The notes: generated by a model from the sequence alone, not told the origin. A DNA stretch of 64,000 nucleotides from Candidatus Aenigmatarchaeota archaeon (GCA_016213525.1 JACRAE010000005.1:145405-209404), one strand, 5' to 3'. Positions 14,187 through 59,900 are shown, counted from the first letter of the stretch. A program made the numbers and translations.

Positions 14187-14588
14187 GTGTCCGCCTTGCA
14201 GAAGGGAATTTCCTACATCATAGCGAGCCTGATGGTCATTTTGATAGCGGTTGGGCTGTCGCTGGCGGTCTACTTCTACACGGACAAGTACGTCGGCAGG
14301 ACCATAGGCAAATCCGTGGAATTCCTGGACGCGGCCTGCAGCACGGCATCCGGATCGTACCTCGTCACGATAAGGAACACCGCGCTCTTCGAGCCCCTGC
14401 CCACGGGGGACATATCCCTGAACGTGGACGGCGTGCCCCAGATAGGTAACATGCAGTGGGACGTCCCCCGGATAGCCGAGAAGGGAGGGATAGGCGTGGG
14501 CACGATATCCGGCTCCGCCCCGGGGAACCACAGGATAAAGATAGTCAGCCCCGTCACGCAGCCTCAGGAGCTGGCAGTGGCGTGCTGA
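14187..14588 (+). CDS. type IV pilin-like protein (class III signal)
   Basis: N-terminus (GTG)SALQKG|ISYIIASLMVILIAVGLSLAVYFY: basic residue, Gly, then a roughly 22-residue hydrophobic helix. Last residue is Cys (..ELAVAC). The 12-mer cctttaatttct lies 22-23 nt upstream, as for pilin 21885. Confidence 0.75.
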   Translation: MSALQKGISYIIASLMVILIAVGLSLAVYFYTDKYVGRTIGKSVEFLDAACSTASGSYLVTIRNTALFEPLPTGDISLNVDGVPQIGNMQWDVPRIAEKGGIGVGTISGSAPGNHRIKIVSPVTQPQELAVAC

Positions 14589-14627
14589 CCCAATCACCGT
14601 AAATACTTCCGCCGCGACTTCTGATTC

Positions 14628-15023
14628 ATGGAAATGGAGTACACGCTCGAGCTCCCGAAGAAGTTCGCCGGGGACGAGATAGCGGAGATAATCGGCGAGG
14701 CAGCGTCCAGCATAAAGTGGAGGTACGAGGAGATACCGTGCTTCTCCGTCACCAGGGCCTCGCAGGGTCCGAAGATTGAGAGCTACGGCATAAGGGTCCA
14801 TAAGGGGGGAGTTTTGTCCAGGATCAGGGACAGGCACATAGTTTTCCAGGTCTCGTCGAACGACGAGGGGTACCACGACTACCCGGAGGACAGGATAAGG
14901 GGCGACGGGGTGTACTCCGCCCTCGTGATGTACGGGTACAGGATCAGCATGGACGACCTCGCGAGGTTCGTGGGCAGCTTCGACTCCATAGTCGAGGAGA
15001 AGATGGAGAACTCCCTGAAATGA
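14628..15023 (+). CDS. hypothetical protein
   Basis: 131-aa ORF with balanced composition. The longer antisense ORF 14169..15074 is R/P/G/H-rich junk. No motif recognised. Confidence 0.5.
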   Translation: MEMEYTLELPKKFAGDEIAEIIGEAASSIKWRYEEIPCFSVTRASQGPKIESYGIRVHKGGVLSRIRDRHIVFQVSSNDEGYHDYPEDRIRGDGVYSALVMYGYRISMDDLARFVGSFDSIVEEKMENSLK

Positions 15024-15035
15024 GGCTTCTGGAAA

Positions 15036-15045
15036 ACTTATAAAC
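15036..15045 (+). promoter_or_regulatory. TATA-like box
   Basis: acttataaac, about 28 nt upstream of the rps6e ATG 15068. Confidence 0.45.
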
Positions 15046-15067
15046 CTCCCATCCGTAAAGATATTCC

Positions 15068-15469: not shown

Positions 15470-15486
15470 ATTCCGCCCCCAAAACG

Positions 15487-15498
15487 TTTTATTTAAAA
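15487..15498 (+). promoter_or_regulatory. TATA-like box
   Basis: ttttatttaaaa, about 28 nt upstream of the aIF2-gamma ATG 15520. Confidence 0.5.
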
Positions 15499-15519
15499 CT
15501 CCCGCGACAATAGACTTAC

Positions 15520-16743: not shown

Positions 16744-16797
16744 TTAGAAAATTCTGACTTTTAGGGAATGGTGCCGCCTAAATCTTAACCCGAGGAA

Positions 16798-17232
16798 TCA
16801 GCAGGAGACCGGAATCTGGTTCGCCTTGCCCGTCGGGCCTATGACCTTCATCCTGTGGGTCGTGCCCGGGACGCAGTTGACCTGGCCCGCGACCCCCGTG
16901 TTGGAGCACGCGATGCTGGCGAGCGACGTGTTGTCAAAAGTGACTATCCCCTTCCCGAGGAACTCGGAGTACTGGAGCCACGTCGGGGCGACCGGTATCT
17001 CGTCGACCCTGAAGGCTATCTCGCTGAGGCTGATGTTCTCGAACGAGTCGAGGTTCCTGACCGTTATGTAGTAGTTGCTGACCCCGGCGGCGCAGCTGGC
17101 GTCCGAGACCTCTATCTGCTTCGCAGTCTGCGTGGTGAAGAGGTTCTGTATGTAGCCGTACGCGGTTATCGCGAGGCCCACGGTTATCACGAGCATGAGC
17201 AGAGTCGCTATTACGGCAGATATTCCCTTCAT
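16798..17232 (-). CDS. type IV pilin-like protein (class III signal)
   Basis: MKG|ISAVIATLLMLVITVGLAITAYGY. Four Cys. Last residue is Cys (..QIPVSC). Confidence 0.8.
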   Translation of the reverse strand: MKGISAVIATLLMLVITVGLAITAYGYIQNLFTTQTAKQIEVSDASCAAGVSNYYITVRNLDSFENISLSEIAFRVDEIPVAPTWLQYSEFLGKGIVTFDNTSLASIACSNTGVAGQVNCVPGTTHRMKVIGPTGKANQIPVSC

Positions 17233-17260
17233 CTTAATCCTTACAGTAAATTGTCGGGGA

Positions 17261-17272: not shown

Positions 17273-17294
17273 GCTTCGAACCCAAATCAGAAGC

Positions 17295-17657: not shown

Positions 17658-17675
17658 CATCGGTGAAAATTCATT

Positions 17676-18197: not shown

Positions 18198-18202
18198 CCG
18201 TT

Positions 18203-20922: not shown

Positions 20923-21336
20923 ATGAAAGGACTCAGCCCGATTGTAGCAACGATAGTTCTTATCGCGTTCGCCGTCGCCGTCGGCGGCCTGGTGGCGCTC
21001 TGGCTGACCAATTTTGCGACCAGCACGACCGAGTACACGAGCGAGCAGGGCGACAAGCTCACCGCCTGCGCCGGCACGAGGCTCAAGTTCGACAACGTCG
21101 GCTCGTCCAGCATAATCTACTCCAACCCGACGGTCAAGCTGATAACCAACATAACCGTCTATGACATGAACGGGAGGAATCTCACGTTCAACGCCACCAG
21201 CATGGCGTCCGGCCAGGTGGCGAACATAACCTGGGCGAGGGGCAGCAACACGTCCGTCTTCATGCGCGGCGTGTGCGAGGACTCGATAGTCGTCGAGGGC
21301 AACTGCAAGACCGGCCAGGTCTGCTGGGGCGAGTGA
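20923..21336 (+). CDS. type IV pilin-like protein (class III signal)
   Basis: MKG|LSPIVATIVLIAFAVAVGGLVALWLTNF. ATG about 35 nt after actatataaat. C-terminal Cys cluster NCKTGQVCWGE. Confidence 0.85.
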   Translation: MKGLSPIVATIVLIAFAVAVGGLVALWLTNFATSTTEYTSEQGDKLTACAGTRLKFDNVGSSSIIYSNPTVKLITNITVYDMNGRNLTFNATSMASGQVANITWARGSNTSVFMRGVCEDSIVVEGNCKTGQVCWGE

Positions 21337-21343: not shown

Positions 21344-21820
21344 ATGAAGGGAATAAGCCCGTTCGTCGCAGCCATCCTCCTTATAGCCCTCACAGTCGCG
21401 GTCGGCGGCCTCCTCGCGGTGTGGTTCTCCACGCTCACGAGCAGCCAGACTCAGACCGTCTCTGCCACGTCCGAGCAGCTAGCCAAGTGCGCCTCCAGTT
21501 CCCTTACGATAAACGAGGTCAGGTACTCCTCAACGGGGGCTTCAAGGCTGGTCAACGTCACGACGTCCTCGAGCGGGTCGCAGTACCTGAAGAACATAAC
21601 GATATCAATATCCGGCGGCGGCGCGACGTCGAACAGCATAAAATATTATAACGCAAGCGGCGACGACCTTGCCCCAGGAGGCGTGTTCGCGGCTTCGATT
21701 AACACCACAGGCGGCGCCCTCGTCCCGCCTGAGATAGTCTCCGCCAGCGGAATCTGCCAGGGACAGTACGCGGTCTCCGTCAGCTGCAAGGCCGGCGAGG
21801 CCTGCATGAAGCCCTCCTAG
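21344..21820 (+). CDS. type IV pilin-like protein (class III signal)
   Basis: MKG|ISPFVAAILLIALTVAVGGLLAVWFSTL, 7 nt after the previous stop. C-terminal Cys cluster VSCKAGEACMKPS. Confidence 0.85.
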   Translation: MKGISPFVAAILLIALTVAVGGLLAVWFSTLTSSQTQTVSATSEQLAKCASSSLTINEVRYSSTGASRLVNVTTSSSGSQYLKNITISISGGGATSNSIKYYNASGDDLAPGGVFAASINTTGGALVPPEIVSASGICQGQYAVSVSCKAGEACMKPS

Positions 21821-21884: not shown

Positions 21885-22298
21885 ATGAAAGGAGTAAGCC
21901 CGATTATAGCCACGGTCATCGTGGTAGGTTTCGCGGTCGCCATAGGCGCGTCGGTCAGCATCTGGGGGACCGGATTCATATCCGGCCAGACGCAGACTAT
22001 CGAGGAGAGCTTCGAGGAGCAGGTCGACTGCAGCTCCGCCACGATGGTCCTCAACAAGGTGACGTGCAACGAGGACGGGTCTTTGCTGGGAATGTGGCAC
22101 TTCGAGGAGAACGGGGGCAGCGTCGCCAGGGACTCCAGCCAGAACGGGAGGCAGATCAACCTCACCTCTCCTTCGTGGGTCTCTGGCAAGAGCGGCCGCG
22201 CCCTCGACTTCACCGGGTCGAACTACGGCGCCGTCAACGGCTCCGAGTCGCTGAACCCGGCGAAGTTCACCATAGAGGCGTGGGTGTACAAGCCGTGA
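21885..22298 (+). CDS. type IV pilin-like protein ending in an orphan N-terminal LamG fragment
   Basis: MKG|VSPIIATVIVVGFAVAIGASVSIW. The C-terminal 75 aa LLGMWHFEENGGSVARDSSQNGRQ..GRALDFTGSNY...AKFTIEAWVYKP are colinear with the first third of the LamG modules of the giants and stop abruptly. The stop overlaps the next start (TGATG). Confidence 0.75.
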   Translation: MKGVSPIIATVIVVGFAVAIGASVSIWGTGFISGQTQTIEESFEEQVDCSSATMVLNKVTCNEDGSLLGMWHFEENGGSVARDSSQNGRQINLTSPSWVSGKSGRALDFTGSNYGAVNGSESLNPAKFTIEAWVYKP

Positions 22299-24550
22299 TG
22301 AAGGCAATCTTGTTTTTGTCCTTCATAGTGGCGTTCGTGTTCTCAATCGGAGAGGCAAGTGCTCTGATAACGGTTTGCGCCTCGGGCTGCGATGCGACCT
22401 CGGTTGCAGTCGGGCTCAGCATTGCCGCCGCAAACGAGGAGGTTAGGATTATAGACTCGGGCTACTACAACGAGGGACCAACCGTCTCGAGCAACAAGTT
22501 CCTCACGTCGAACTCCTCCGTCAGACCCACGATATGGTCCAACTCTGCCACATGTTGCAACATAGCGACCGCGAGCGGTATGATTGTATCGGGGAGCAAC
22601 GTGGTGATTAGGAACATAAGGATAGTAAAGAACAACAGCAACCCATTCTCGTCTGGAATGTCTATAGGCAGCGGGACCAATATCACAATAGAGAACACCG
22701 TCATAGAGGACCCAAGCTGGTGGGGGGTCTATGTGGGGTCCCCTAATCGTCTCAATTTCATAAACAACACCGTCTTGAGCGGGCTTAGCTCCTACGGAGC
22801 CGAGTTCAATGGAGTCTCTGACGGCTGGATACAGAACAACAGCAACATATCCAACAACGTATTTTCAGGTAGCGGCCAGAACGGATACAAGAATAACTTG
22901 ATTATGGGAAGTAACAACACCGTGAGCGGGAATATTTTTAACTGTGATGTAGAATGTTTGCATGTAAATGGGACGTCTAGCAATAACAACAGCATAAACA
23001 ACAACACCTTCCTTATGAGCCCAACAGGATATTCCAACATAGCCCTTAATATTCACGGCGCCGGCGTAAACAACGTCGTGGCATACAACAACTTTAGCGT
23101 GGTCGGTTCCGGGTCGAGTTCGACCTACGGAAACGCCATAAAACTGTCCTGGACGAACCACACACAAGTCTACGGCAACACGATATATGTCGCCGCGCAC
23201 TACGTCTATAACATAAATTGGTTGAAGGGAATATACCTATATCGGACGTTCTACAGCAACCTATCGTCAAACAACATATATATCACAGGCGACGCCTTTA
23301 CAACCCCAACCTACCTTAACTCCAACGGTTGGGGAATATATGACCAAGAATCATCGAACAACATCTATTCCAACAACATCGTAGCCGTCAACGGCACTGG
23401 AGACGACTATGGTATATACCTATATTCATCCAACAACTCGGTTCACATAAATGACTCCATGTTCACCAACAGCAGCCGCAGCCACGCACTCATAATACGC
23501 TATTCGACTAACAACACGTTCTACGACTCTGTTATAAATTCGACCACGGATCCAGATGTGAACGTCGGATACGGGAACGGTACAACGTATTTGGTCAACG
23601 TCACCATGAACAAGTCAGACATAAATTTCTCGTCCCAATATGAGGGGGACAGGGTCTATGTACAGTACTACGTGAACGCAAGGGCTACCGACAACTCAGC
23701 CGCGCCGATGAGTGGAATCGTGATATACGGGAACGACTCCTCATCTGTCCAAGATTACGACAACCCAACGAGCAACTTCTCCGCCACCACGAACTCCACC
23801 GGCTACATGCCACAGCAGATCCTTACCCAGTTTATGGCGAACGGAACTTACAGACTCGGAAGCTACCTGCAGTTCAGCAACTATACCATAGTCGCACGGG
23901 GCGAGACATTCTCTGCATCATCCCAATTGAACCTAACCCAGAACTCGTTCGTCGGTCTGGCAATAGCCAGACTCGTGTCAATTTTCTCGAAGGGATCCGA
24001 TTCGTACGGGATTATGGCGGGGGACACCGGTGACGCGGTCTATGGATTCGTGAACTCTCAGAACGCGTCGTCTACTTTATCAAGCGGCTGGAGCCATGTG
24101 GTCATGACTTTCGATTCGGGCACAATCAGGCTGTACGTCAACGGTCAGCTAGCCGGAACTGGCAGCACCTCCGCCACGCCCGCGGCTAGCAGCAGGAGCA
24201 TCATAATCGGCAACGGCACGGACCTCGTAATCGACGAGGTGACGTTCCGCTCGGGCGTCCTATCGCAGGGCGCCATCGAGCAGCACTACCAGGTCGGACC
24301 GGGCCTCAAGGCGATAGTGTCCGCGGTCGGCGGGGGCAGCTTCGGCAGGAACTTCAACATATCTGCCTCGACGGGCGACGGCTCGTTCTCTAACAGGCAT
24401 GTAACGGCGGCGGACCTCCTCGCAGGCACGACGCAGTCCGTCAACCTGCCGAACGCGACGGGGGTCCCCACCGCCGTGGTCGTGACCAGCAACTCCTGCA
24501 ACCAGGTGCTGACCGCGACGAAGGCGCAGCTGAGCGGGGTCTACTGCTAG
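22298..24550 (+). CDS. secreted parallel beta-helix (PbH1/NosD-like) protein with C-terminal LamG-like module and Cys-terminated cap
   Basis: Start at ATG 22298 (Sec signal MKAILFLSFIVAFVFSIGEASA). Repeats of the type N.I....G.DYGIYLYSSNNS. C-terminus WSHVVMTFDSGTIRLYVNGQLAG...IDEVTFRSGVLSQGAIEQHY. Ends ..QLSGVYC. Confidence 0.85.
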   Translation: MKAILFLSFIVAFVFSIGEASALITVCASGCDATSVAVGLSIAAANEEVRIIDSGYYNEGPTVSSNKFLTSNSSVRPTIWSNSATCCNIATASGMIVSGSNVVIRNIRIVKNNSNPFSSGMSIGSGTNITIENTVIEDPSWWGVYVGSPNRLNFINNTVLSGLSSYGAEFNGVSDGWIQNNSNISNNVFSGSGQNGYKNNLIMGSNNTVSGNIFNCDVECLHVNGTSSNNNSINNNTFLMSPTGYSNIALNIHGAGVNNVVAYNNFSVVGSGSSSTYGNAIKLSWTNHTQVYGNTIYVAAHYVYNINWLKGIYLYRTFYSNLSSNNIYITGDAFTTPTYLNSNGWGIYDQESSNNIYSNNIVAVNGTGDDYGIYLYSSNNSVHINDSMFTNSSRSHALIIRYSTNNTFYDSVINSTTDPDVNVGYGNGTTYLVNVTMNKSDINFSSQYEGDRVYVQYYVNARATDNSAAPMSGIVIYGNDSSSVQDYDNPTSNFSATTNSTGYMPQQILTQFMANGTYRLGSYLQFSNYTIVARGETFSASSQLNLTQNSFVGLAIARLVSIFSKGSDSYGIMAGDTGDAVYGFVNSQNASSTLSSGWSHVVMTFDSGTIRLYVNGQLAGTGSTSATPAASSRSIIIGNGTDLVIDEVTFRSGVLSQGAIEQHYQVGPGLKAIVSAVGGGSFGRNFNISASTGDGSFSNRHVTAADLLAGTTQSVNLPNATGVPTAVVVTSNSCNQVLTATKAQLSGVYC
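24086..24550. repeat. inverted-repeat arm A (3' end of beta-helix gene 22298..24550)
   Basis: The reverse complement of 33328..33792 aligns without gaps. The terminal 281 nt (24270..24550) differ at only about 8 positions by eye. Identity is lower upstream. Confidence 0.85.
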
Positions 24551-50600: not shown

Positions 50601-53600
50601 GATCAGCTCGCTCGAAAACTGCGTGGCGTTGTTCTGAGGGTTGAAGTTCGTCGTGTTCATCCTGCCCATCGTGCCTAGCGAGAACATGAAGTTCTGGTTC
50701 ATTGTGGAGTTGAACGTGTAGTTGAAGCCGAAGAAGTCGGTATGGTTGGAGAAAATGTTGAAGCCGGATTGTGTCGTGTTGGACAGAGTTCTGAAAACAT
50801 TTCTGACATTCGTCGTGGCGAACAACACCTCCTCGTTGTCCGTCGCGTTGTTCTTGGTGAAGTATATCCCGGGCTTCTGCTGGTTTATGCCTGTGTGATA
50901 CAGCTGAAGAATCTCCGAATGATTAAGGGCACGCCTATAGATTCGGGCCTCGTCAATATACCCATTGAATACTGTGTCACCAATGACTGCGTCTTTGGAC
51001 GACGAGACATCATAAACACTTCCAGACGCCGTCTTGTCAAGTGTGCCGTTGATATAGAGCCTCATATTGCCCCCTTCCCTTACCCCCACAACATGACTCC
51101 AGGATCTGACCGGTATCTTAGAATTAGATTGAATCTCAAGGTAACCGACGTTTTCAGTGACGAAATCGATAGTCCCGTCGGTGCCCAGAAGTCTCATGTA
51201 CCATTGCGCATTCCCCCCGCCCGGGTTTCTCTCTCCAACAAAAAATGATCCGGAAACCATGGCGCGGGGATTTACCCACACTTCGGCTGTGAAGTCGCTT
51301 GTTCCGAGATTCAAATTATTGTTGTCTGGCAAAAATACGATATCATCGCTCCCGTCGAAGCTCAGGCAGGAGCTGAACTTACAAGAAGAATTGCTGACAC
51401 GGGTAACTCCACCACTAAGATATCCAGGATTCCTCAGACCCGAAGAATCAGTGACATTCGTTCCAAATCCCTCGTTGAAGTTCCAGTACCCGACCAGTCC
51501 TGGCTCGGCTGTGGTGACGGACGTGCGGTTCTCGGGGAGGGAGAATGGGATGGATATGTTGCCGGGGCCGCCTGGGATCGTGGTGCCGTCCCAGAACTGC
51601 ACGTCGTCTATCCTAACCATATTGTCGTTCGACACAGCCTGATAGAAGAACTTGCCGAACAGGTATCTAAGGTCCGAGAAATACGACTTCGACGAAAGGG
51701 ACGTTGTGGCGGTCTCTTCTAGGTTGGAGTACTCGTCCGTGTAGATTTTCACGTCGACCTTCGGGTCTGACGCCGTGTAGACTAATTCCACCCACCTCGT
51801 CGCCGTGAGGGGCTCCGCTCTGCTAATTCCCGTCGCGTACTCGTTGGTGTTCGTCCAGGTGAAAGCATACATGTTAGAGGTCGATCCCGCGGCGTGCGCC
51901 GCCACCGCGAAGTGTATGGAATCGGCGGTCGCGGACGGATTCTCGCCGGAAAGCGAAGTGGAGTCTGTAAGGCCGAACCTCGCCATGACCGCTTGGCCGC
52001 TGGCGTCGTTTATGTAGTTGTTCAACACGACTTTGAACCTCATCACCCATCCGATGTTGTTGTCGGCGTAGTTTCCGGATCCCAAGACCCGTTGAAGATC
52101 ATAGGTCACCCAGTTATCGTCACCACTCTGGTTGTTGTTCATGTTCAGCGTTCCGTTCGTTATCGTCATCTTTCCAGAAGTCCCCGACCAGCTCGAGTTC
52201 GCCGAAAAGTCGTCCTTGAACTTAGTCCCGCCCTTCGAGTCGACGAATACCCTGACGAATGGGTCGTGAGCGGTCATAAGGAAACTTACGTTGACGCCGG
52301 GTTTGGTCATGTTCATGTTGGGATTGAACGCGTACCTCCACTTGAACTCCTGCTTGTTCCTAGGGTCGAGCCAGTCGGGCACCCCAGCCGCTTTATATCT
52401 TATAATAACGATACCCGAACCTCCCGCTCCGCCCGCATTTGCCGGGCTGCCAGCAGATGCCCTGGCTCCTCCACCGCCCGAACCGGTGTTCGCTGTTCCA
52501 GCCGTTGCAACTGCATTTCCTATAGATCCCGCCCCGCCCCCTCCCGAGCCCCCGGTGCCGGCAGCGACCGTAGCGCCTCCCCCACCTCCGCCAGCCCTAG
52601 TGACTGTAGAGCCGTTTATTCTGGACGATAGTCCAGCCCCTCCAGCACCGCCGGTGGTCCCCGAGTTGTTGCCGCCCGCACCTCCAGCTCCACCACCACC
52701 GCCTCCGACGTCTGCAGCAGAGCTCGACCCACCAATATTTCCCTGTCCAGAAGTTCCAGCCGCCCCGCCAAGTAGCTCCGCCCCACCGCCGCCCGAGCCT
52801 CCAGTTGACGCATTTGTAGTTAAAGCTCCACCGGCACCGCCTCCAGTTGCCATAACTGTTGAAAAAATAGAATTTGTACCATTACCTCCAACGTCGAGAT
52901 TTCCTCCAGCACCGCCGCTTCCGACCGTTATGTTATAGAGCTGTGCCGATACCGAGAGTTCTCCCTCCCTGTAGCCACCGGCACCGCCTCCTCCACCGAC
53001 CCATCCACCGCCGCCTCCACCTCCTGCTATAACAAGGTACTCCACTGTGCCGTTTCCAGACGTGACGTTAAACGTCCCATTTGAGGTGAAAGTGTGTATC
53101 GTATAGCCTTCCGCGTAAGTTATGTTGCCGCCAGTCGCCACTATTTTTTCAGATCCCTTTTTCCACAGAATCCAGCCCTGTTGATTCCAGTCGTAGAAAT
53201 AGACCGTCTTGTTCTGGGTGCCGGAGCCGTACAATGAAATCAAATTCTGGCCGTCGACTTTAATCGCGTCGTCGAAGCTCGCGTTGAAGATTATTTTATT
53301 AGACGAGTTGTACACGGTCATGTTCCTCTCCGTCATGCCGACGCGGATGAAGTCGTTCGATATGTTGACCACGCCGTAGAGCGAGCCGTTCTCGTCCATC
53401 CAGTAGCTGCCTCCAGGGCGGGAGTCGCGCAGCCCGAACTCGAACCCGTCCGAGCCGGCGAGGGTGTAGTTGACTGTGGTGTGGGTGGAGTTAGAGGTGT
53501 AGTTCCACGAGCCCTGCCCTATGCCAAGGAGCTCCCTCACGTCCCTCAGGCTGCCGTCGGACGCGTTGTAGAGGACCGAGGACGCGCCTCCTATTTGGAA

Positions 53601-54497
53601 GACGGACGTGCTGGAGTTGCGGGTGTAGTTTGTGTTGTCGATGATTGAAGTGTAGTTCACAGACCCGCCTGGAATAGAACCGCCCGAATATGTGAAGCTG
53701 GTCTCATTGCCTGCAATCCTTATCACGTCGCCAGTGCTGTTGGGGCCTATCCTGTAGCCGTACGTCAGGGTCGTCTGGTTGCGGGTCGTGTTCCTGACGT
53801 CGACGAGAAGGAAGTCCGACGAGGCCCGGAGCGTGTAGAGGACCTCGTACTCCGCTCCTTGAGAGGAGCGGACGTGGGCAAGCACGCCGGTGCTGGTCAG
53901 GCCGCCGCCCTCGAACGCGAGTTTGGTGTAGCCGGTGCCCCACGACGTGTCCGAGGTGCCGTTCAGGGTGATTCCGAAGTTCGTCGGGACTATCGTTGTT
54001 TGGGGCTCGGTCTTCGACCTCACCGTCTTGACGAGGGTGCTGGTGTTTATCGACGCGAAGCTGCCCTCAGTCCCCACTTTCAAAAAGACGACTTCCATCA
54101 GCTCGTTCTCTAATTTTAGATGGGTCGAGTTCTGGCTCGCGGAAGCGATGCCGGTTATGGTGGTGATGAGGTTGCCTTCCCTGTTGAACGTCCCCTTCGC
54201 CAGCGCCCCGGTCTTTATCGGGAGCTCGAAGCTGAAGGAGTTCGAGTCGGAGTCGACCCTGTAGACGCCGTCGTTCACGTTGATCTGGGCCACCCTCAGC
54301 GTGCCTGTGCCCTCCGCGGCCACCTGGCGCACGAGGTTGTCTATAATCTCCATGTTCTGGCCGGCCTCGCCTATTATGCCGGTCTCCCTCGCCTCGTCAA
54401 GAACGGGCAGGCCGATTCCGAGGACGACCCCTATGCCCACGAAGACGATGAGGGTCACGAGGACGAAGCTTATGAGTTCTGACGCTCCTTTGGGCAC
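47700..54497 (-). CDS. giant (2,265 aa) class-III-signal surface protein: pilin-like N-terminus + 2 Gly-rich modules + 3 LamG-like modules + Cys-terminated cap
   Basis: GTG start. (M)PKG|ASELISFVLVTLIVFVGIGVVLGIGLP. LamG signatures (W.F.EG.G...DSSG..N.G...W.SNSSCKF.SC.SFDG; W.HV...; LYINGT/IYING; IDE[AV]R[IL]Y.RAL...EI..[LH]Y) three times. TIHTFTSNGTFNVTSG.G.VEYLVIAGGGGGGG...GSGIVIIRY twice. Ends ..VSVRGC. Confidence 0.9.
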   Translation of the reverse strand: MPKGASELISFVLVTLIVFVGIGVVLGIGLPVLDEARETGIIGEAGQNMEIIDNLVRQVAAEGTGTLRVAQINVNDGVYRVDSDSNSFSFELPIKTGALAKGTFNREGNLITTITGIASASQNSTHLKLENELMEVVFLKVGTEGSFASINTSTLVKTVRSKTEPQTTIVPTNFGITLNGTSDTSWGTGYTKLAFEGGGLTSTGVLAHVRSSQGAEYEVLYTLRASSDFLLVDVRNTTRNQTTLTYGYRIGPNSTGDVIRIAGNETSFTYSGGSIPGGSVNYTSIIDNTNYTRNSSTSVFQIGGASSVLYNASDGSLRDVRELLGIGQGSWNYTSNSTHTTVNYTLAGSDGFEFGLRDSRPGGSYWMDENGSLYGVVNISNDFIRVGMTERNMTVYNSSNKIIFNASFDDAIKVDGQNLISLYGSGTQNKTVYFYDWNQQGWILWKKGSEKIVATGGNITYAEGYTIHTFTSNGTFNVTSGNGTVEYLVIAGGGGGGGWVGGGGGAGGYREGELSVSAQLYNITVGSGGAGGNLDVGGNGTNSIFSTVMATGGGAGGALTTNASTGGSGGGGAELLGGAAGTSGQGNIGGSSSAADVGGGGGGAGGAGGNNSGTTGGAGGAGLSSRINGSTVTRAGGGGGGATVAAGTGGSGGGGAGSIGNAVATAGTANTGSGGGGARASAGSPANAGGAGGSGIVIIRYKAAGVPDWLDPRNKQEFKWRYAFNPNMNMTKPGVNVSFLMTAHDPFVRVFVDSKGGTKFKDDFSANSSWSGTSGKMTITNGTLNMNNNQSGDDNWVTYDLQRVLGSGNYADNNIGWVMRFKVVLNNYINDASGQAVMARFGLTDSTSLSGENPSATADSIHFAVAAHAAGSTSNMYAFTWTNTNEYATGISRAEPLTATRWVELVYTASDPKVDVKIYTDEYSNLEETATTSLSSKSYFSDLRYLFGKFFYQAVSNDNMVRIDDVQFWDGTTIPGGPGNISIPFSLPENRTSVTTAEPGLVGYWNFNEGFGTNVTDSSGLRNPGYLSGGVTRVSNSSCKFSSCLSFDGSDDIVFLPDNNNLNLGTSDFTAEVWVNPRAMVSGSFFVGERNPGGGNAQWYMRLLGTDGTIDFVTENVGYLEIQSNSKIPVRSWSHVVGVREGGNMRLYINGTLDKTASGSVYDVSSSKDAVIGDTVFNGYIDEARIYRRALNHSEILQLYHTGINQQKPGIYFTKNNATDNEEVLFATTNVRNVFRTLSNTTQSGFNIFSNHTDFFGFNYTFNSTMNQNFMFSLGTMGRMNTTNFNPQNNATQFSSELIESVANSTLTWYDLPGIIATGGNVTYADGYKIHTFTSNGTFNVTSGSGNVEYLVIAGGGGGGGKYGGGGGAGGYLAGTGHRVTSRSYPIVIGAGGGGGVDSVNEGLNGTNSSFDTIESKGGGGGDTSGGPGIGSHGGSGGGSACALSPVAGTPGQGNSGGTGYSACGGNYPHGGGGGAGAVGQTAPSNTVGGNGGSGLASSINGTLVYRAGGGGGGTWTGGTSGSGGSGGGGNAGAGGGNNNGADGTANTGGGGGGASFASGAGGVGGTGGSGIVIIRYPASWNSTNPLSGVTQHDSSLLFNYDGGASGIWRLDEGSGLNATDSSGNGNTGTVNATWISNSSCKFGSCMSFDGGFNNVNLSSSSIFDISGDLTIEAWVNPNQIPTAGQGLKAIFTKNTVADNCGYGLYTTTSTGVLRAWFYVVGSGWTNVDGVDALSLNTWYHVAVTHKGNKAQIYINGIQSGGGGTIGTICTGGSYSTKIGAQTPFNERSWNGTIDEVRLYPRALTDTEIREHYQREVTRYYDDFGTAASGKTYRYFGVEDSNTTLQPVTPAGTVLHYRFNDNSTLNVTDSSGLGNGGGVINGAIWMTNSSCKNNFGRCMFFDGTNDYVNNLNPSSLPLGNSPHTIAAWIYYRGSGDGPIVVYGSTNTNQSRWLYANYNGVSGLSAGFYSNDVSANYIIPNNVWTHVTWSYNTTTSFFYVNGTLVASPALSGANTQLNSQGVRIGSDTFGQSRYFNGSIDEVIITNRTLSPDEVYQLYLGGANRTVGGKWHRVASAEGVQSAAFNLTDHNNTFEGADYDMRMIFINGTSEGTVSTSTSPASACYTRQNTSYLYACSYDQSELSSTRSSGIVYSGDEGSFVSLCNDAAASEYRFNITSLGALRSVVPFSAASCAVVANQSEAVTRLGLPTRPFGSYLISGDGMLHMELQYGRIALNGTDKFGKGSHRICIEKTGRQGTVALVSVRGC
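48900..49100. repeat. direct-repeat block shared by the two giant genes (copy 1)
   Basis: Aligns with 59537..59737 (offset 10,637). Includes an identical run of about 50 nt, gtgacttcgcgctggtagtgctcgcggatctcggtgtctgtgagggcgcg. Confidence 0.8.
53266..53580. repeat. direct-repeat block shared by the two giant genes (copy 1)
   Basis: Aligns with 63687..64000 at a constant offset of 10,421 nt. I estimate roughly 90% identity by eye. Confidence 0.8.
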
Positions 54498-54543: not shown

Positions 54544-54999
54544 TCAGCACGCGGTGGCGTTGACCGAGACGTGGGTGCCGTTCCAGCCGGCCTTTTCGAG
54601 GCAGACCCTCTGGAGCCCCTGTCCGAGCCGAAGGTCCCCAGAGACCGATATGTTGGAATAGGTCAGGTTGAGCCTGATTTTCCCGTTGACAATCAAGCTG
54701 CTGCCCTCGAGGAAGCCCTCCGGAGCCTCTGACCTGTATTCCACCCTCCCGTCGGCGATTCTGTAGCTCCCCCCGCTCACCTGCAAGGCGACCTCCCTCA
54801 CGCTTCCCTCTCCCCCCGATGCGGTGTCGCGGATTGCATTGTCCAAAATCAGCATGCTTCTTTGAGCATCGCCCAGCTCGGCTGACGCCCTTGAGTGATC
54901 GAGTGCAGGCAGACCGAACATCAAGACGGCGGAGACGCCGGCGACGCTGATCAAAACGACTATGACGGACGATATCATCGAGGACGTTCCCTTTCCCAT
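54544..54999 (-). CDS. type IV pilin-like protein; minimal scaffold homologous to the termini of the giant ORFs
   Basis: MGKG|TSSMISSVIVVLISVAGVSAVLMFGLPALD... aligns with the giant-1 N-terminus (GLPVLDEAR..MEIIDNLVRQVAAEGTGTLR). C-terminus RVCLEKAGWNGTHVSVNATAC aligns with both giant C-termini. Confidence 0.8.
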   Translation of the reverse strand: MGKGTSSMISSVIVVLISVAGVSAVLMFGLPALDHSRASAELGDAQRSMLILDNAIRDTASGGEGSVREVALQVSGGSYRIADGRVEYRSEAPEGFLEGSSLIVNGKIRLNLTYSNISVSGDLRLGQGLQRVCLEKAGWNGTHVSVNATAC

Positions 55000-56038: not shown

Positions 56039-56071
56039 ACACAACACGACCAATTATTCTAGTTGATTTTG

Positions 56072-56350
56072 ATGGATTTGAAAAAGGTCAAAGAGGACAA
56101 GGACACGCTCCTGTTGGAGATAGCCGGCGAGACCTTCACCGTGACGAACGCCCTGAAGGAGGAGCTGTGGAACGACAAGACGGTCTCCGAGGCCGCCCAG
56201 GTCCGCGAGCACCCCTACCTGTCCGAGCCGAAGGTCTTCGTGAAGACCGAGAAGGGCTCCCCCGTCGCGGCGCTCGAGAAGGCCGCCGAGAGGATATCCG
56301 CCAACGCGAAGGAGTTTCAGGCGGAGTTCAAGAAGGCCGCGAAGAAGTAG
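56072..56350 (+). CDS. rpoL: RNA polymerase subunit Rpo11 (RpoL)
   Basis: MDLKKVKEDKDTLLLEIAGETFTVTNALKEELWNDKTVSEAAQVREHPYLSEPKVFVKTEKGSP fits the Rpo11 pattern. The track ORF opens on TTG 56063. Start is ambiguous. Confidence 0.82.
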   Translation: MDLKKVKEDKDTLLLEIAGETFTVTNALKEELWNDKTVSEAAQVREHPYLSEPKVFVKTEKGSPVAALEKAAERISANAKEFQAEFKKAAKK

Positions 56351-56374
56351 CTCATTTTTCTAATACGCAATAAC

Positions 56375-56929
56375 TCAGCAGACTTTCTGACCCTTCTCCT
56401 TCAGGAGGGTCTCGTTGAAGTATATCGGCGCGCCCATCCTGAGGGCCAGAGCGGCCCCGTCGCTCGGCCTGGAGTCGAGGTTCAGGAGGACGTCCCCCTT
56501 CTTGAGGAGAGTCTGGCCGTAGAAGTTCTCGTCCCTGAGCTGCGTCACCTTCACCATCACCAGCTCCACACCGAGCTGCCCGAACGCGTCCCTCATCAGC
56601 TCGTGCGTGTTGGGCCTCGGCCCGGTGACGGAGTCGAGGGCGTTCTTTATCGACTCGGCCTGACCGACGTCCGTGCCCGCGACCAGCCTGTAGCACCCGC
56701 CGGTCATGGCGAGCACCCCCTTGCCGCCGATGACCTCCGCCTGCGGCCTAACCGTGACGAAGCCCTCCGTCGAGAGGTCGGAGATGCCGGCGTTCTCGAT
56801 CGTGTCCGGGCTCTCTATCTTCTCCATCTGCTCCAACAGGGCGGAGGCCGCCAGCGCAATCGATACCAGAGTCAAAATTATGAGCGCTTTCTCCCTCTTG
56901 TTTATGCGCGCGTCCTTCCCAGGCCTCAT
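56375..56929 (-). CDS. membrane-anchored bifunctional-nuclease-domain (DUF151/BFN) protein
   Basis: N-terminal TM ALIILTLVSIALAASALL, then GPRPNTHELMRDAF and LDSRPSDGAALALRMGAPIY (DUF151 hallmarks RP.THDL / D.RPSDA.ALA). Last residue is Cys (..GQKVC). Confidence 0.7.
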   Translation of the reverse strand: MRPGKDARINKREKALIILTLVSIALAASALLEQMEKIESPDTIENAGISDLSTEGFVTVRPQAEVIGGKGVLAMTGGCYRLVAGTDVGQAESIKNALDSVTGPRPNTHELMRDAFGQLGVELVMVKVTQLRDENFYGQTLLKKGDVLLNLDSRPSDGAALALRMGAPIYFNETLLKEKGQKVC

Positions 56930-56974
56930 GGTATTCAGTTTCCCCCTCCTCGGCTTAAAACTTTCCGTGGACGG

Positions 56975-59900
56975 TCAGCAGTTGGTGGCGTTGATCAGTA
57001 TCCTCGGCCCGTCCTGCCCTATCTTCTTGAAGCACGCCCTCTCCAGGCCCGGTCCCATCCTGAGGTCTCCCAATATCTTAATCCTGTCGTACTGCAGCAC
57101 CATCTGTAGGTTGGACGGCCCGCCCGCCAGATAGGAGCCGAACGATATCGCAGGGACGCCCTGGCTGAAGACGGTTCCCGTGCCATTGCCTATCGTGCCG
57201 CAGTCCCCGGTCGAGAACGGTATTATGGTCTTCAGCGGCCCGGCGGCGGTGAGGTTGAACTTGTACACCGCCCCCGTCTGGTTCCCGCCGACGCCCTCGA
57301 AGCATATCGAGGAGAAGTCCTGCGCCCTGCCGGCCCCGATTATGCCCGAAGCCTTGGCCTGGGAGAACTCGGAGTCGTCGTACGAGCAGGCGTACGGCCT
57401 GGTGACGTTCGTGATGTTGAAGCATCCCGGGCTCGGGGCGGCCGCCGAGATGGACGAATTCGAAGTCGAGCCGTTCACCGTCAGCGCGCGCATGTCGTAG
57501 TCCGCGCCCTCGAAGGTGCTGTTGTGGTCCGTCAGGTTGAACGAGACTGACTGTATCCCGTCGGCGGAGGCGACCCTATGGATGCGGCCGTATATCGACT
57601 CCGAGTCCTGCGTCTGGACGTACTCGTGCATCACCTCATCTGACGTGAGGGCGCGCTTCCAAACCTTGACGTTGTCCACCGTGCCGTTCAGGTATCCGTG
57701 GGTCGCGTCGTTGGGGCTGGACGACCTCGCCCCTATCGTGAATATGCCTGTGTCATCTTGTATCGTCCCGGAAAATGATGCAGATGAAACCCTGGTCCCG
57801 TTTACGTAGAGGGTGACGTTCTTGACGACGTCATCGACGACCAAAGTCGCATGTACCCATGTATCGAGAGGAAATATTGTTCCCGGACCGGAAGACACGG
57901 TTGTCTGGGTTGTGCTCCCATTATATATTATCCCTCTGATTGATGGAGTCGTCCCATCCCAGAAGAGCATGTACCCCTCGTAGTCCCCTGTCACGTCCTC
58001 CTTCCCGGCTATCCCTTGGTTGGCGTTGCCGGATATGTTCCCGAGCCTCTTCGTCCAGGCGGACACGGTCAGGCTCTTGTGGTTCAGGCTCGGGGAGTTC
58101 TCGACCTTCACGTAGTCGTCCATACCGTCGAACCTCAGCGCATTCCCCAGCTTGTCATCCGACCCATGGACTCCTCCCGTCAGGTTGCCGGTGTTACCGT
58201 TCCCGCTGGAATCCAGGGTGTAGTTGGAATAGATGAAAGTGGCGTTCGAGCTCCCCGCGTTGCTTCCGTCGTATATCCTCATGTTGTCTATGGTGGCGGT
58301 CAGCGTCCTCGATCCCGATCCTTCCTTTCCGTTTGCGTGCTGCAGGTACCTCAAGTTCTGTATCGTGGCAGGAACCGACCTGGTGACGGACCCGACCAGG
58401 GTGCTCCTCTGGGGATCGGAGAAGACGGACATTGCCATGGCGGTCGCGTTCAGCCTCTCCACGCGCATGTAGTATGTCGTACTGGAGCTCAGAGTGGTCC
58501 CAGTCACGATGGACGCGTCCGTCCCGTTGTCTATGTATTCCGGATGCATCCTGTTGCCGTCGGCCCCGTCGTATCCAAAGTTGACGCCGATTCCATCACC
58601 GCTCGCCGTGTCGTAGACATCCTGACTGTCGTTGGTAAGCCAGAACACCCTGTGGGACGGTATGTTGGACGCCGTCCACCTGAACTCGAAATTCGCCACC
58701 CATCTAGTGTTGCTGAGGTTCCGCCCCAGATCGTACCACACTCTGCTTTCGACGGCGTCCGCGCCGAAACCCGTCACCTGTCCGTTCGAGACCGCGACGC
58801 CGGACCCGACCTGCGTCCATCCCCCGGAAGAGGAGTAGTTGAAGCTGATGTCCGGGAGGTCCGCGTCGTTGAACTTCCACCATCCAACCAGGTCGCCGCC
58901 GTGCCTCTGGGCGCCGCCGAGGTAGAGCTGATAGACCTCGTCGGGGGACAGGCTCCTGTTCACTATGATTAAATCGTCAATCATCCCTCCTAGGAAGCCG
59001 GTGGACCGGGCCCTGCCCAGATCGAGGTTGTATGTCGGGCCCAAGGAGCTCGGATTGAAGCTGAGCTTGTCGTATGTCTCCATGTTGCCGCCGTCGAAGA
59101 ACACCCTGGCGTTGCCACGGGTCAGGTTGTTGTCGTATGTGACGGTGAGCATGTGCCATTTCTCATCGTCGGTTATCTTTCCGATTGACGTCACGTCGAG
59201 GAGTCCCTGCGCGCCGTTGCCGTTGGCTATTTCATAGTCTATCGTGCCGTCGGTGTTTGATTCCAGTCCTATTCCAACGTTCGCCCACGTGTCGTCTTTG
59301 TTGTCAAGTATGTAGTCCTTCGTCGCCCCTCTCTTCTTGAACCACGTGTTTATGGTGAACTTAGAGTTGCTCTTGTGCATCCATGCCCAGTTGCTGATGT
59401 TTCCCAGCTGGACATAGTCGTTAGAGTCGTCGAAGCTCATGCAGCCGCCGAAGCTGGCCATGCATGACGTATTTGAAATCCATGCCGCTCCATTTACAAC
59501 AGAGCCTGTAATATTGTTACCGGAAGCGTCCGTCGCGTTCAACGTCGAGTTGTCGTTGAACCTGTAGTGCAGCACCGTTCCCGCGGGCGTCACCGGCTGC
59601 AGCGTCGTGTTCGAGTCCTCCACGCCGAAGTAGCGGTAAGTCTTCCCGTAGGTGGCGGTGCCGAAATCGTCGTAGTATTTAGTGACTTCGCGCTGGTAGT
59701 GCTCGCGGATCTCGGTGTCTGTGAGGGCGCGGGGATAGATACGAACTTCGTCGAGATAGCCGTTGAAGAAGTTAGCAACTCCGCCTCTGGCGCCCATTAT
59801 CAAATTTGTCGGGTTCGGGTTTAAGGTGACAGACAATGCATACTGAGACTCCATAATACCATCGACATAAATTCGGCTAACGCTGCCGTCATATGTTCCT

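What the first reader, a model, noticed from the sequence alone, without database searches (positions are those of the whole stretch)
14187..56975. C-terminal cysteine as the very last residue of eight secreted/membrane proteins (terminal disulfide staple?)
Seen:
- These proteins end exactly in Cys: 14187..14588 (..ELAVAC), 16798..17232 (..QIPVSC), 22298..24550 and 33328..36474 (..LSGVYC), giant-1 (..VSVRGC), 54544..54999 (..VNATAC), giant-2 (..INATNC) and the DUF151 protein (..GQKVC).
- Two further pilins end with Cys pairs a few residues from the end (NCKTGQVCWGE, VSCKAGEACMKPS).
- In most of these a partner Cys lies 15-21 residues upstream (R[VIA]C[LIF][EK]K.G..G......... C; SNSCNQVLTATKAQLSGVYC).
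- The small pilins also share a Cys about 20-25 residues after the hydrophobic helix (D[AK][AL][ST][AC]C[AS]).
- None of the cytoplasmic housekeeping proteins in the window ends in Cys.

Established knowledge: bacterial type IVa pilins carry a C-terminal disulfide-bonded loop (D-region).

Inference: an analogous terminal disulfide, or some other chemistry at a free C-terminal Cys, may be a family hallmark here.
Basis: partly seen in the sequence, partly recalled or inferred. Interest (0 to 1): 0.6.

Follow-up and report, generated by a model that had tools for sequence, protein, structure and literature searches.

The report
Disulfide-stapled C-termini of archaeal surface proteins
In a tiny groundwater archaeon of the Aenigmatarchaeota type, pilus subunits and giant surface proteins end exactly in a conserved cysteine with a conserved partner cysteine, most likely a disulfide bond pinning down the chain end; this is a tidy variant of a stabilising trick already seen in pili.

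Summary
All eight exported proteins do end in Cys. One sub-claim is wrong: a cytoplasmic tRNA-binding protein (1828..2193) also ends in Cys.

The enrichment is real: 8 of 13 exported proteins against 1 of 51 others (Fisher p = 2e-6). The eight fall into four unrelated families.

- **Small Ig-like pilins:** the terminal Cys is one of three invariant columns in 29 sequences, and the orthologous gene in Aenigmatarchaeota MAGs keeps it last or near-last. Its likely partner is the Cys after the helix (about residue 47), not one 15-21 residues upstream.
- **DUF7289-like module (54544 and the giants):** of 103 representatives, 51 have both Cys, 52 have neither and none has one. This is a single evolutionary event followed by strict retention.
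- **Beta-helix/LamG proteins:** 11 of 11 homologues end C-x15-C-COOH.
- **BFN nuclease:** only one close relative was found.

Exported proteins carry even Cys counts. A relative encodes exported thioredoxin/CcdA proteins.

The best reading is intramolecular disulfides stapling the last strand. Cys-Cys distances could not be measured because no model coordinates are returned.

The closest solved precedent is the Pyrobaculum arsenaticum pilin disulfide. This is a new variant of a known kind, of moderate interest.

The parts
16798..17232 (-). Family a small archaeal type IV pilin-like protein (144 aa). It has four Cys: C47 (17092-17094), C109, C120 and the terminal C144 (16801-16803).
   Evidence: The class III-type N-terminus is MKGISAVIATLL. 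The AF2 model has pLDDT 85.8, with a helix at 3-35 followed by a beta-sandwich; C47 lies in the first strand and C144 follows the last strand. Foldseek matches archaellins and archaeal T4P pilins at E = 8.5e-6. C144 is invariant and C47 is conserved in at least 90% of 29 sequences.
14187..14588 (+). Family a paralogue (133 aa). It has only two Cys: C51 (14337-14339) and the terminal C133 (14583-14585).
   Evidence: Translation. The syntenic orthologues end ..QELAVAC in L025 and ..QELVAVC in L028.
20923..21336 (+). Pilin (137 aa) with four Cys: C49, C118, C128 and C134. The last Cys lies 3 residues from the end (..CWGE).
   Evidence: The orthologues end ..CWE in L025 and ..CWK in L028.
21344..21820 (+). 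Pilin (158 aa) with four Cys: C49, C138, C148 and C154. The last Cys lies 4 residues from the end (..CMKPS).
   Evidence: There are weak Arch_flagellin and Pilin_N hits. The motif C-x9-CK[SA]G.PCM.. is conserved in the Aenigmatarchaeota loci L013, L014 and L019.
22298..24550 (+). Family c Sec-signal beta-helix plus LamG surface protein (750 aa). Its terminal pair is C734 (24497-24499) and C750 (24545-24547).
   Evidence: Pfam gives Laminin_G_3 and Beta_helix. All 11 homologues (43-100% identity over the tail) end ..SC-x15-C-COOH.
33328..36474 (-). Family c paralogue (1048 aa) with Gly_rich_2, NosD and LamG domains. Its terminal pair is C1032 and C1048.
54544..54999 (-). Family b 151-aa DUF7289 pilin-like protein. 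It has only two Cys: C133 (54601-54603) and the terminal C151 (54547-54549).
   Evidence: PF23960 scores 32.4 bits against a cut-off of 27. The AF2 model has pLDDT 94.4, with a helix at 4-61. The last hairpin is E128-139 and E144-150, with C133 inside the first of these strands and C151 just after the second.
47700..54497 (-). Giant-1 (2265 aa) with a pilin-like N-terminus, LamG and Gly-rich arrays, and the family b C-terminal hairpin. Its terminal pair is C2247 and C2265.
   Evidence: All 16 Cys occur as sequence-local pairs.
56975..64000 (-). Giant-2, whose 5' end runs off the window. It carries the same C-terminal hairpin, with the partner Cys at 57032-57034 and the terminal Cys at 56978-56980.
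   Evidence: The representative P0043 (2661 aa) has the same tail.
56375..56929 (-). BFN/DUF151 nuclease-domain protein (184 aa) held by a membrane anchor or signal peptide. It has only two Cys: C79 and the terminal C184.
   Evidence: PF02577 scores 80.7 bits. The N-terminal hydrophobic segment scores h = 2.52. The single relative found, L023 (80% identity), keeps both Cys.
1828..2193 (-). Cytoplasmic tRNA_bind protein (121 aa) that also ends in Cys. It serves as the background example.
   Evidence: PF01588 scores 94.7 bits. The relative ends ..GSKIC. The Aenigmatarchaeota homologue in L008 ends ..GERVY.

Best explanation
The terminal cysteines are each one half of a conserved intramolecular disulfide. 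The bond staples the very end of the chain, the last beta-strand, onto the folded extracellular domain of exported proteins. The organism is an Aenigmatarchaeota-like DPANN archaeon from groundwater.

Three geometries are used.
- **Small Ig-like pilins.** The Cys at the end of the first strand after the N-terminal helix (about residue 47-51) bonds to the last residue. This closes the whole globular domain into a covalent loop, a first-to-last-strand clamp.
- **DUF7289-like pilin module** (the 151-aa protein and both giants). The pair bridges the two strands of the final beta-hairpin (C-x13-17-C-COOH).
- **Beta-helix/LamG surface proteins.** A C-x15-C-COOH pair closes the tail.

The BFN nuclease (C79...C184) probably does the same.

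Shown here: the conservation, the pairing statistics and the secondary-structure context. Inferred: that the bond forms, and that it serves mechanical, thermal or exoprotease stability of filaments and adhesins. The chain ends at the Cys because residues beyond the staple would be a loose, cleavable tail.
For: **Conservation**
- Family a: C144 is one of only 3 invariant columns in 29 sequences at 29-94% identity, and C47 is conserved in at least 90%. Of the 28 database homologues, 25 end exactly in Cys; the other 3 have the Cys 1-3 residues from the end.
- The 131-aa members of family a have only these two Cys.
- In 22 named Aenigmatarchaeota MAG loci, the syntenic orthologue keeps Cys 46/47 plus a last, penultimate or near-last Cys. 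Cys counts there are always 2, 4 or 6.
- Family b: among 103 representatives clustered at 50% identity or less that have an alignable tail, 51 have both Cys, 52 have neither and 0 have one. Of the 51, 48 end exactly at Cys. Indels are confined to the loop between the two Cys.
- Family c: 11 of 11 homologues keep both Cys.
- Orthologues in two relatives (GC 47% and 45%) keep every terminal Cys.

**Parity and pairing**
- In Aenigmatarchaeota loci, proteins with an N-terminal hydrophobic segment have even:odd Cys counts of 55:14, against 109:123 for the rest (Fisher p = 1e-6).
- In the window, the soluble exported proteins have even Cys counts as translated. The exception is the multicopper oxidase, which has one Cys. 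The NosD-like protein at 42524 has 4, one of them inside its signal peptide.
- An even-Cys bias is an accepted predictor of disulfide formation (PMC2823432).
- All Cys in the giants come as neighbouring pairs.

**Structure and context**
- The AF2 models are confident (pLDDT 85.8 and 94.4). They place the Cys at the end of the first strand and after the last strand in family a, and on the two strands of the final hairpin in family b.
- A close relative encodes membrane-anchored thioredoxin-fold proteins (CPLC, CINC) and a CcdA/DsbD_TM protein. The window encodes a secreted multicopper oxidase, which implies contact with O2.
- Solved precedent: the P. arsenaticum pilin has a Cys80-Cys139 disulfide in its C-terminal extension (PMC7347861).
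Against: - No Cys-Cys distance could be measured, because structure prediction returns no coordinates.
- Taken at face value, the DSSP register of the 54544 model puts C133 opposite residue 150. C151 would then be diagonal rather than directly across (inference).
- The both-or-neither pattern in family b needs only one change on the tree. It is therefore one event plus long retention, not repeated independent co-gain or co-loss.
- The thiol-redox operon was found in a relative, not in the window's own genome. CcdA-type systems are usually reductive or isomerising, and no oxidase (DsbA/DsbB/VKOR) was identified.
- Groundwater DPANN archaea often live in low-oxygen water, where disulfides may be less stable.
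- BFN conservation rests on a single relative at 80% identity.
Confidence: 0.7

Rival explanations
1. The pairs form intermolecular disulfides. The terminal Cys of one subunit would bond to the partner Cys of the neighbouring subunit, or of another surface or host protein. This would covalently cross-link the filament or tether the giants.
For: Conservation and both-or-neither occurrence fit this as well as an intramolecular bond. A last-residue Cys is sterically free. In 2-Cys pilins a head-to-tail chain is formally possible.
Against: - In families b and c the two Cys are only 14-18 residues apart. In the 54544 model they sit on adjacent strands of one hairpin, which is the usual setting for an intramolecular bond.
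- The same motif occurs in a Sec-signal beta-helix protein and a BFN nuclease, which are not filament subunits.
- The solved archaeal and bacterial pilin disulfides are intramolecular (PMC7347861).
Confidence: 0.13
2. The terminal Cys carries a free thiol used for other chemistry. Candidates are metal or sulfur binding together with the partner Cys and the free carboxylate, a SoxY-like carrier arm, or an enzymatic modification that needs a C-terminal Cys, such as AviCys-type oxidative decarboxylation.
For: Ending exactly at Cys in four unrelated folds is unusual, and a plain disulfide does not require it. Weak Ig-fold Foldseek matches to SoxYZ appear at E about 7e-3. The habitat may be reducing (groundwater).
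Against: - A partner Cys is always present and total Cys counts are even.
- There is no Gly-rich swinging arm like the GGCGG of SoxY (from my own knowledge).
- The residues before the Cys differ between families (VSC, VAC, VYC, TAC, TNC, RGC, KVC), so there is no common recognition motif.
- In Aenigmatarchaeota orthologues the Cys is often penultimate or 3-6 residues from the end. The exact terminus is therefore not obligatory.
- No modifying enzyme gene was seen in the window.
Confidence: 0.07
3. The pattern is chance plus paralogy: eight hits that are really a few duplicated genes, or gene-call or truncation artefacts.
For: The eight collapse to four families. The LSGVYC tails are near-identical copies, and the giants and 54544 share one module. 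One cytoplasmic protein also ends in Cys.
Against: After collapsing to families the enrichment is still p = 1.3e-4. The terminal Cys is conserved in homologues down to about 30-40% identity and in syntenic orthologues across a phylum. Stop codons vary, and homologues stop at the same place.
Confidence: 0.02

Closest known systems
Pyrobaculum arsenaticum type IV pilin with the intramolecular disulfide Cys80-Cys139 (cryo-EM; PMC7347861)
   Same: It is an archaeal T4P pilin with an N-terminal helix and an Ig-like beta domain. Its C-terminal segment is tied to the globular domain by one disulfide, which the authors interpret as stabilising.
   Different: In Pyrobaculum the Cys sits inside a 15-residue C-terminal extension and bonds to a mid-domain Cys. 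Here the Cys is the last residue, and in the small pilins it most likely bonds to the first strand just after the helix. There is no detectable sequence relationship. The Pyrobaculum host is a hyperthermophile, whereas this organism comes from groundwater.
D-region disulfide loop of bacterial type IVa/IVb pilins (e.g. PAK pilin, gonococcal PilE, TcpA), from established knowledge
   Same: A conserved Cys pair near the C-terminus of a type IV pilin staples the last strand or segment and is needed for stable subunits.
   Different: The bacterial globular domain is an alpha-beta roll, not an Ig-like sandwich. The bacterial Cys is not the terminal residue. The feature is analogous, not homologous, beyond the N-terminal helix.
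Pfam DUF7289 (PF23960), archaeal pilin-like proteins of unknown function
   Same: The 54544 protein passes the family threshold. It has a long N-terminal helix and a beta-sheet finished by a C-terminal hairpin.
   Different: Only one half of the wider family (51 of 103 representatives) carries the Cys pair and ends at Cys. The sister half has L/I/V at the partner site and runs 1-4 residues further. The giants carry about 2000 residues of LamG and Gly-rich modules between the ends.
Disulfide-rich exported proteomes with an even-Cys bias (Mallick 2002; Dutton 2008; Daniels 2010, PMC2823432)
   Same: Exported proteins here show the even-Cys bias that predicts oxidative folding outside the cytoplasm.
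   Different: Those studies did not cover DPANN archaea and did not report a preference for Cys as the last residue.

Membership tests
Archaeal type IV pilin-like proteins (class III signal peptide; Pfam Pilin_N PF07790) | An N-terminal short charged leader ending K/R-G or K/R-A, followed by a hydrophobic helix of about 20 residues or more | tested here: met
   Read directly from the sequences MKG|ISAVIATLLMLVITVGLAITAY, QKG|ISYIIASL.., MKG|LSPIVATIVL.. and MKG|ISPFVAAILL... The N-terminal hydrophobicity score is 2.7-3.1.
Archaeal type IV pilin-like proteins (class III signal peptide; Pfam Pilin_N PF07790) | A Pfam Pilin_N match above the gathering score | tested here: not met
   The scores are 19.1 and 17.2 bits against a cut-off of 25.2, and three of the pilins have no hit at all. 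The sequences are divergent.
Archaeal type IV pilin-like proteins (class III signal peptide; Pfam Pilin_N PF07790) | The pilin/archaellin fold: a long N-terminal helix plus an Ig-like beta-sandwich | tested here: met
   The AF2 model has pLDDT 85.8. Foldseek matches the Halobacterium archaellin (E = 8.5e-6), the Sulfolobus AAP pilin, the P. calidifontis pilus and FlaF/FlaG.
Archaeal type IV pilin-like proteins (class III signal peptide; Pfam Pilin_N PF07790) | A prepilin peptidase (Peptidase_A24) and an assembly ATPase/TadC in the same genome | tested here: inconclusive
   Peptidase_A24 was found on a close relative's contig at L032 18706-19578.
DUF7289 (PF23960) | A Pfam match above the gathering score of 27 bits | tested here: met
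   54544..54999 scores 32.4 bits. Giant-1 scores only 21.8 bits, below the cut-off.
Disulfide-stapled pilins (the kind represented by P. arsenaticum Cys80-Cys139) | Two conserved Cys in the exported domain, one of them in the C-terminal segment | tested here: met
Disulfide-stapled pilins (the kind represented by P. arsenaticum Cys80-Cys139) | The Cys pair lies within bonding distance in the structure, or the bond is observed | not testable with these tools
   Structure prediction returns only pLDDT and secondary structure. The strand context is compatible with a bond, but no distance is available.
BFN_dom / DUF151 (PF02577) | A Pfam match above the gathering score | tested here: met
   80.7 bits against a cut-off of 27. 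The protein aligns to TM0160 (PDB 1SJ5) at E = 1.4e-8.
Sortase/archaeosortase-type C-terminal sorting signals (PGF-CTERM and the like) | A C-terminal motif followed by a TM helix and a basic tail | tested here: not met
   The proteins end directly at the Cys after a beta-strand, with no C-terminal hydrophobic segment.

The most novel reading that the evidence does not exclude
Ending the chain exactly at a bonded Cys may be a lineage-wide design rule for the contact apparatus of these DPANN archaea, meaning the pilins, the giant LamG adhesins, the beta-helix proteins and an exported nuclease. It would have evolved convergently in at least four unrelated folds. Two drivers are possible: a specific pressure such as resistance to carboxypeptidases at the host interface, or recognition of a Cys-COOH terminus by a dedicated oxidoreductase or attachment system. 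In the second case the terminal Cys would be a functional tag rather than just a staple.
Probability: 0.12. Interest if true: 0.65.

Novelty: new variant of a known kind. Interest (0 to 1): 0.4.

Why it matters
DPANN archaea depend on physical contact with host cells, and almost nothing is known experimentally about their pili and giant surface proteins.

This work yields a conserved and easily testable covalent feature, found across Aenigmatarchaeota MAGs for the small pilin and clade-wide for the DUF7289-like module. The feature does three things.
- It marks which pilin-like genes are under strong structural constraint.
- It predicts that these organisms fold exported proteins oxidatively, even in groundwater.
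- It gives construct-design rules for anyone trying to express or solve these proteins: keep the native C-terminus, avoid C-terminal tags, and use oxidising expression.

It also gives a simple sequence signature (Cys about 12 residues after the helix, plus a C-terminal Cys) for recognising this pilin family, which Pfam Pilin_N misses. It does not reveal a new kind of biology.

Tried and rejected
  - As substitutes I surveyed the window itself, 22 Aenigmatarchaeota loci and 55 kb of a close relative's contig, reached by hopping with the look-up of encoding contigs.
Only a 6-kb Logan copy was available.
- Cys-Cys distances: no coordinates are exposed (one search shows no model files in /data).

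**Searches that found little**
- More BFN relatives: the metagenome scan gave one locus, the viral-contig scan none, and the neighbouring contigs of P0031 were too short.
- Taxonomy from the listing of cluster members gave no names. Placement rests instead on synteny and about 60% aIF2-gamma identity to named Aenigmatarchaeota MAGs.
- Foldseek of the 54544 model against the PDB gave no significant neighbour; the best hit was E = 0.027.
- A motif and TM screen of the Aenigmatarchaeota loci found no DsbA/VKOR-like oxidase.
- Literature searches found no description of terminal-Cys pilins in DPANN archaea.

**Readings considered and rejected**
- Stop-codon recoding or selenocysteine: rejected, because the stops are mixed TGA and TAG.
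- Repeated co-gain and co-loss of the Cys pair as independent evidence: rejected, because the tree needs only one change.
- C-terminal sorting signals, a SoxY-like carrier arm and AviCys-type modification were considered from my own knowledge. I rejected them as the leading explanation, because a partner Cys is always present and the families share no motif.

Full report
**1. Observation**

- ..ELAVAC at 14187..14588(+)
- ..QIPVSC at 16798..17232(-)
- ..LSGVYC at 22298..24550(+) and 33328..36474(-)
- ..VSVRGC at 47700..54497(-)
- ..VNATAC at 54544..54999(-)
- ..INATNC at 56975..>64000(-)
- ..GQKVC at 56375..56929(-)

Each Cys codon (always TGC) is followed directly by a stop. Over the nine genes that end in Cys, six stops are TGA and three are TAG. 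This matches the window's overall usage (37 TGA, 18 TAG, 9 TAA), so nothing suggests recoding or read-through. The two near-terminal cases (..NCKTGQVCWGE..VSCKAGEACMKPS) and the Cys shortly after the helix in all five small pilins are also as described.

The window has 57% GC and many spurious long ORFs, so I built a codon-usage-based gene list of 64 genes. That list shows one error in the finding. The cytoplasmic tRNA_bind protein at 1828..2193(-) also ends in Cys..PGSKVC.

Cys makes up 0.81% of window residues.
- Nine terminal Cys among about 65 proteins gives a binomial p of 3e-9.
- Collapsing paralogues to five families out of about 60 gives p = 1.3e-4.
- Exported proteins against the rest is 8/13 against 1/51, Fisher p = 2.4e-6.

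**2. What the proteins are**

Pfam, AlphaFold2 and Foldseek results sort the eight into four unrelated families.
- **Family a.** These are small archaeal type IV pilin-like proteins at 14187 and 16798. The pilins at 20923 and 21344 have the same cysteine layout, with a Cys about 49 and a near-terminal Cys. The 16798 model (pLDDT 85.8) is a helix at 3-35 plus an Ig-like sandwich. It matches archaellins, the Sulfolobus AAP and Pyrobaculum pilins, and FlaF/FlaG (E down to 8.5e-6).
- **Family b.** This is a DUF7289-like pilin module. It is present alone in the 151-aa protein at 54544 (PF23960, 32.4 bits). It also forms the N- and C-terminal ends of both giants, which carry LamG and Gly-rich arrays. 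The 54544 model is very confident (pLDDT 94.4) but has no significant PDB neighbour.
- **Family c.** These are Sec-signal beta-helix/NosD plus LamG surface proteins at 22298 and 33328.
- **BFN.** This is a nuclease domain (PF02577, 80.7 bits) behind one N-terminal hydrophobic segment.

The sample is a groundwater metagenome. The small-pilin family is found in 22 genome loci, 19 of them titled Candidatus Aenigmatarchaeota and 3 titled 'uncultured archaeon'. The pilin sits in the same housekeeping neighbourhood (PIN_9, pyrophosphatase, Rpb7 | pilin | aIF2-gamma, S6e) in the window, in two closer relatives and in those MAGs. aIF2-gamma is about 60% identical to the named MAGs. The organism is therefore an Aenigmatarchaeota-like DPANN archaeon.

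**3. Is the terminal Cys conserved?**

*Family a.* Of 28 database homologues (31-94% identity), 25 end exactly in Cys. The other three have the Cys 1-3 residues from the end. In the 29-sequence alignment the terminal Cys is one of only three invariant columns, and Cys47 is conserved in at least 90%. In the 131-aa members these are the only two cysteines.

Among the 17 pilin-sized complete orthologues in the MAG loci, a Cys at 46-48 is always present. A second Cys is the last residue in 8, penultimate in 6 and 3-6 residues from the end in 3. Total Cys counts are 2, 4 or 6. Three longer proteins are not counted here: L017 and L021 with Cys-rich tails, and L020.

*Family b.* A full phmmer scan of 1.84 billion representatives gave 220 hits. 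I aligned the last 60 residues of the retrieved set with jackhmmer, and 103 have the C-terminal hairpin module. Of these, 51 have both Cys, 52 have neither and none has only one. Among the 51, 48 end exactly at the Cys. The Cys-less ones have L/I/V at the partner site and run 1-4 residues further. Length differences between members fall in the loop between the two Cys.

A tree built with the Cys masked shows that the label needs only one change, with branch support of 80. This is one ancient gain or loss of both Cys, followed by strict retention of both across a very diverse clade. It is not many independent events.

*Family c.* All 11 homologues (43-100% identity over the last 190 residues) end ..[GS][VS]YC, with the partner 16 residues upstream.

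*BFN.* Only one relative could be reached. It is 80% identical and keeps both Cys, so this case is weakly tested.

*Relatives.* Orthologues in the relatives with 47% and 45% GC retain every terminal Cys..LPVSC..ELAVAC..TLTVSC..ELVAVC and ..EGVYC.

*Cytoplasmic case.* The tRNA_bind terminal Cys is shared with the close relative, but the equivalent residue is Tyr in an Aenigmatarchaeota homologue. I treat it as background.

**4. Evidence that the Cys are disulfide-bonded**

- In 399 ORFs from the Aenigmatarchaeota loci, proteins with an N-terminal hydrophobic segment have even:odd Cys counts of 55:14. The rest have 109:123 (Fisher p = 1e-6).
- In the same ORFs, last-residue Cys occurs in 10/89 against 1/310, and Cys within the last five residues in 32/89 against 8/310. 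The loci were chosen through the pilin, which inflates the first class. Other families contribute as well, for example the ..CMK pilins and a 207-aa protein with 10 Cys that ends ..EYSC.
- In the window, the soluble exported proteins have even Cys counts as translated. The exception is the multicopper oxidase, which has one Cys. The NosD-like protein at 42524 has 4, one of them inside its signal peptide.
- An even-Cys bias in exported proteins is the accepted genomic predictor of disulfide formation (PMC2823432).
- In the giants every Cys has a neighbour 4-34 residues away. The LamG modules begin SNSSCKxxxC, and the terminal pair is 18 residues apart.
- In 55 kb of a close relative's contig, terminal Cys occurs in the two pilins and the tRNA_bind orthologue only (3 of 66 proteins). 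Polytopic membrane proteins and redox proteins do not end in Cys. The feature therefore belongs to pilin-type and surface proteins, not to everything exported.
- The same contig encodes a cluster of extracytoplasmic thiol-redox proteins: a TM-anchored thioredoxin with CPLC, CcdA/DsbD_TM, a TM-anchored redoxin with CINC, and a DUF3179 protein with CPLC. It also encodes a Peptidase_A24 prepilin peptidase.
- The window encodes a secreted multicopper oxidase, which implies contact with oxygen.

**5. Geometry**

The structure tool gives only secondary structure.
- In the 16798 model, C47 is the penultimate residue of the first strand (E40-48) and C144 follows the last strand (E137-143). Both lie at the C-terminal ends of their strands. 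That would fit a parallel first-to-last-strand pairing, as in Ig-like folds, but this is inference.
- In the 54544 model, C133 lies in strand E128-139 and C151 follows strand E144-150 of the final hairpin. A literal reading of the register puts C133 opposite residue 150, with C151 diagonal. That is compatible with a bond to a free terminal residue, but it is not proof.
- No distances could be measured.

**6. Explanation and rivals**

I commit to intramolecular disulfides that staple the chain end (confidence 0.7).
- In the small pilins it is a first-to-last-strand clamp.
- In the DUF7289-like module and the family c tail it is a hairpin staple.

The likely function is resistance to mechanical load, heat and exoproteases in filaments and adhesins that must hold a host cell.

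The rivals are intermolecular cross-links (0.13), free-thiol, metal or other chemistry (0.07), and chance or paralogy (0.02).

In the small pilins the partner is the post-helix Cys, not one 15-21 residues upstream. And one cytoplasmic protein also ends in Cys.

**7. Comparison with what is known**

- The closest solved case is the P. arsenaticum pilin. Its C-terminal extension is tied to the domain by Cys80-Cys139 (PMC7347861).
- Conserved cysteines in Thermoproteales T4P components were noted by Makarova et al. (PMC4858521).
- Bacterial type IV pilins have the D-region disulfide (established knowledge).
- I found no description of terminal-Cys pilins in DPANN archaea.
- Earlier AI notes from this scan report disulfide-clamped pilins in other DPANN genomes. 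These notes are leads, not support.

What appears to be new:
- the Cys is exactly the last residue in four unrelated exported families of one genome;
- the small-pilin pair is conserved, at a fixed genomic position, across the Aenigmatarchaeota MAGs sampled;
- the DUF7289-like family splits cleanly into a Cys-pair clade and a Cys-less clade.

**8. Verdict**

This is a real, conserved feature. It is a new variant of a known stabilising device, of moderate interest (0.4). The geometry and the own-genome survey remain to be done.

Noticed in passing
window 1828-2193 (-); L029 12755-13132: A cytoplasmic tRNA_bind (Trbp111/CsaA-like) protein ends in Cys (..PGSKVC). Its orthologue in a close relative ends ..PGSKIC, whereas an Aenigmatarchaeota homologue (L008) ends ..GERVY.
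   Followed up: partly
window 14187-17232; L025, L028, L001-L022: The small pilin genes sit inside a conserved block of translation and housekeeping genes (TyrRS/TrpRS, S6e, aIF2-gamma | pilin | PIN_9, pyrophosphatase, Rpb7, Spt4, S24e, eIF6). The arrangement holds across the window, two relatives and named Aenigmatarchaeota MAGs. This is unusual for pilins, which normally sit in pilus operons.
   Followed up: partly
window 21885-22298 (+) and 22298-24550 (+); L028 3398-3811 and 324-3401: The third pilin ends in an N-terminal LamG fragment (..EAWVYKP) and overlaps the start of the beta-helix/LamG gene by ATGA. A relative with 45% GC has the same arrangement (..EMWVYRP, 4-nt overlap). It is therefore conserved and not a recent pseudogene, and a programmed frameshift or split gene is conceivable.
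   Followed up: partly
L029 15484-19018 (relative's contig, next to the CBS and tRNA_bind genes): An operon of extracytoplasmic thiol-redox proteins lies here: a TM-anchored redoxin (CINC), CcdA/DsbD_TM, a TM-anchored thioredoxin (CPLC) and a DUF3179 protein (CPLC). The window's equivalent flank (1-1300) holds other genes. Whether the window's own genome has this operon is unknown.
   Followed up: partly
window 2920-4518 (-): A three-domain multicopper oxidase with an N-terminal signal-like segment sits in a DPANN-type genome. It implies exposure to oxygen or extracellular metal or phenol oxidation.
   Followed up: no
window 47700-54497 and 56975-64000 (-): Every LamG module of the giants begins with a conserved Cys pair, [ST]N[ST]SC-x4-C or -x6-C followed by xSFDG. 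All 16 and 18 Cys in the two giants occur as neighbouring pairs.
   Followed up: partly
window 54544-54999 (-): The 151-aa DUF7289 protein gives a very confident AF2 model (pLDDT 94.4) with a 58-residue helix plus a beta-sheet. It has no significant structural neighbour in the PDB (best Foldseek E = 0.027).
   Followed up: partly
L017 2721-4555; L021 9998-11779: Some Aenigmatarchaeota have, at the orthologous site, a longer pilin with a Thr-rich linker and a Cys-rich tail (12-16 Cys). It is followed by a 207-aa protein with 10 Cys that ends ..EYSC or ..EFSC.
   Followed up: no
window 33328-36474 (-): The public gene call for this protein (P0033, 753 aa) starts at an internal Met. It omits the signal peptide and the Gly_rich_2 domain that the 1048-aa ORF contains.
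   Followed up: no
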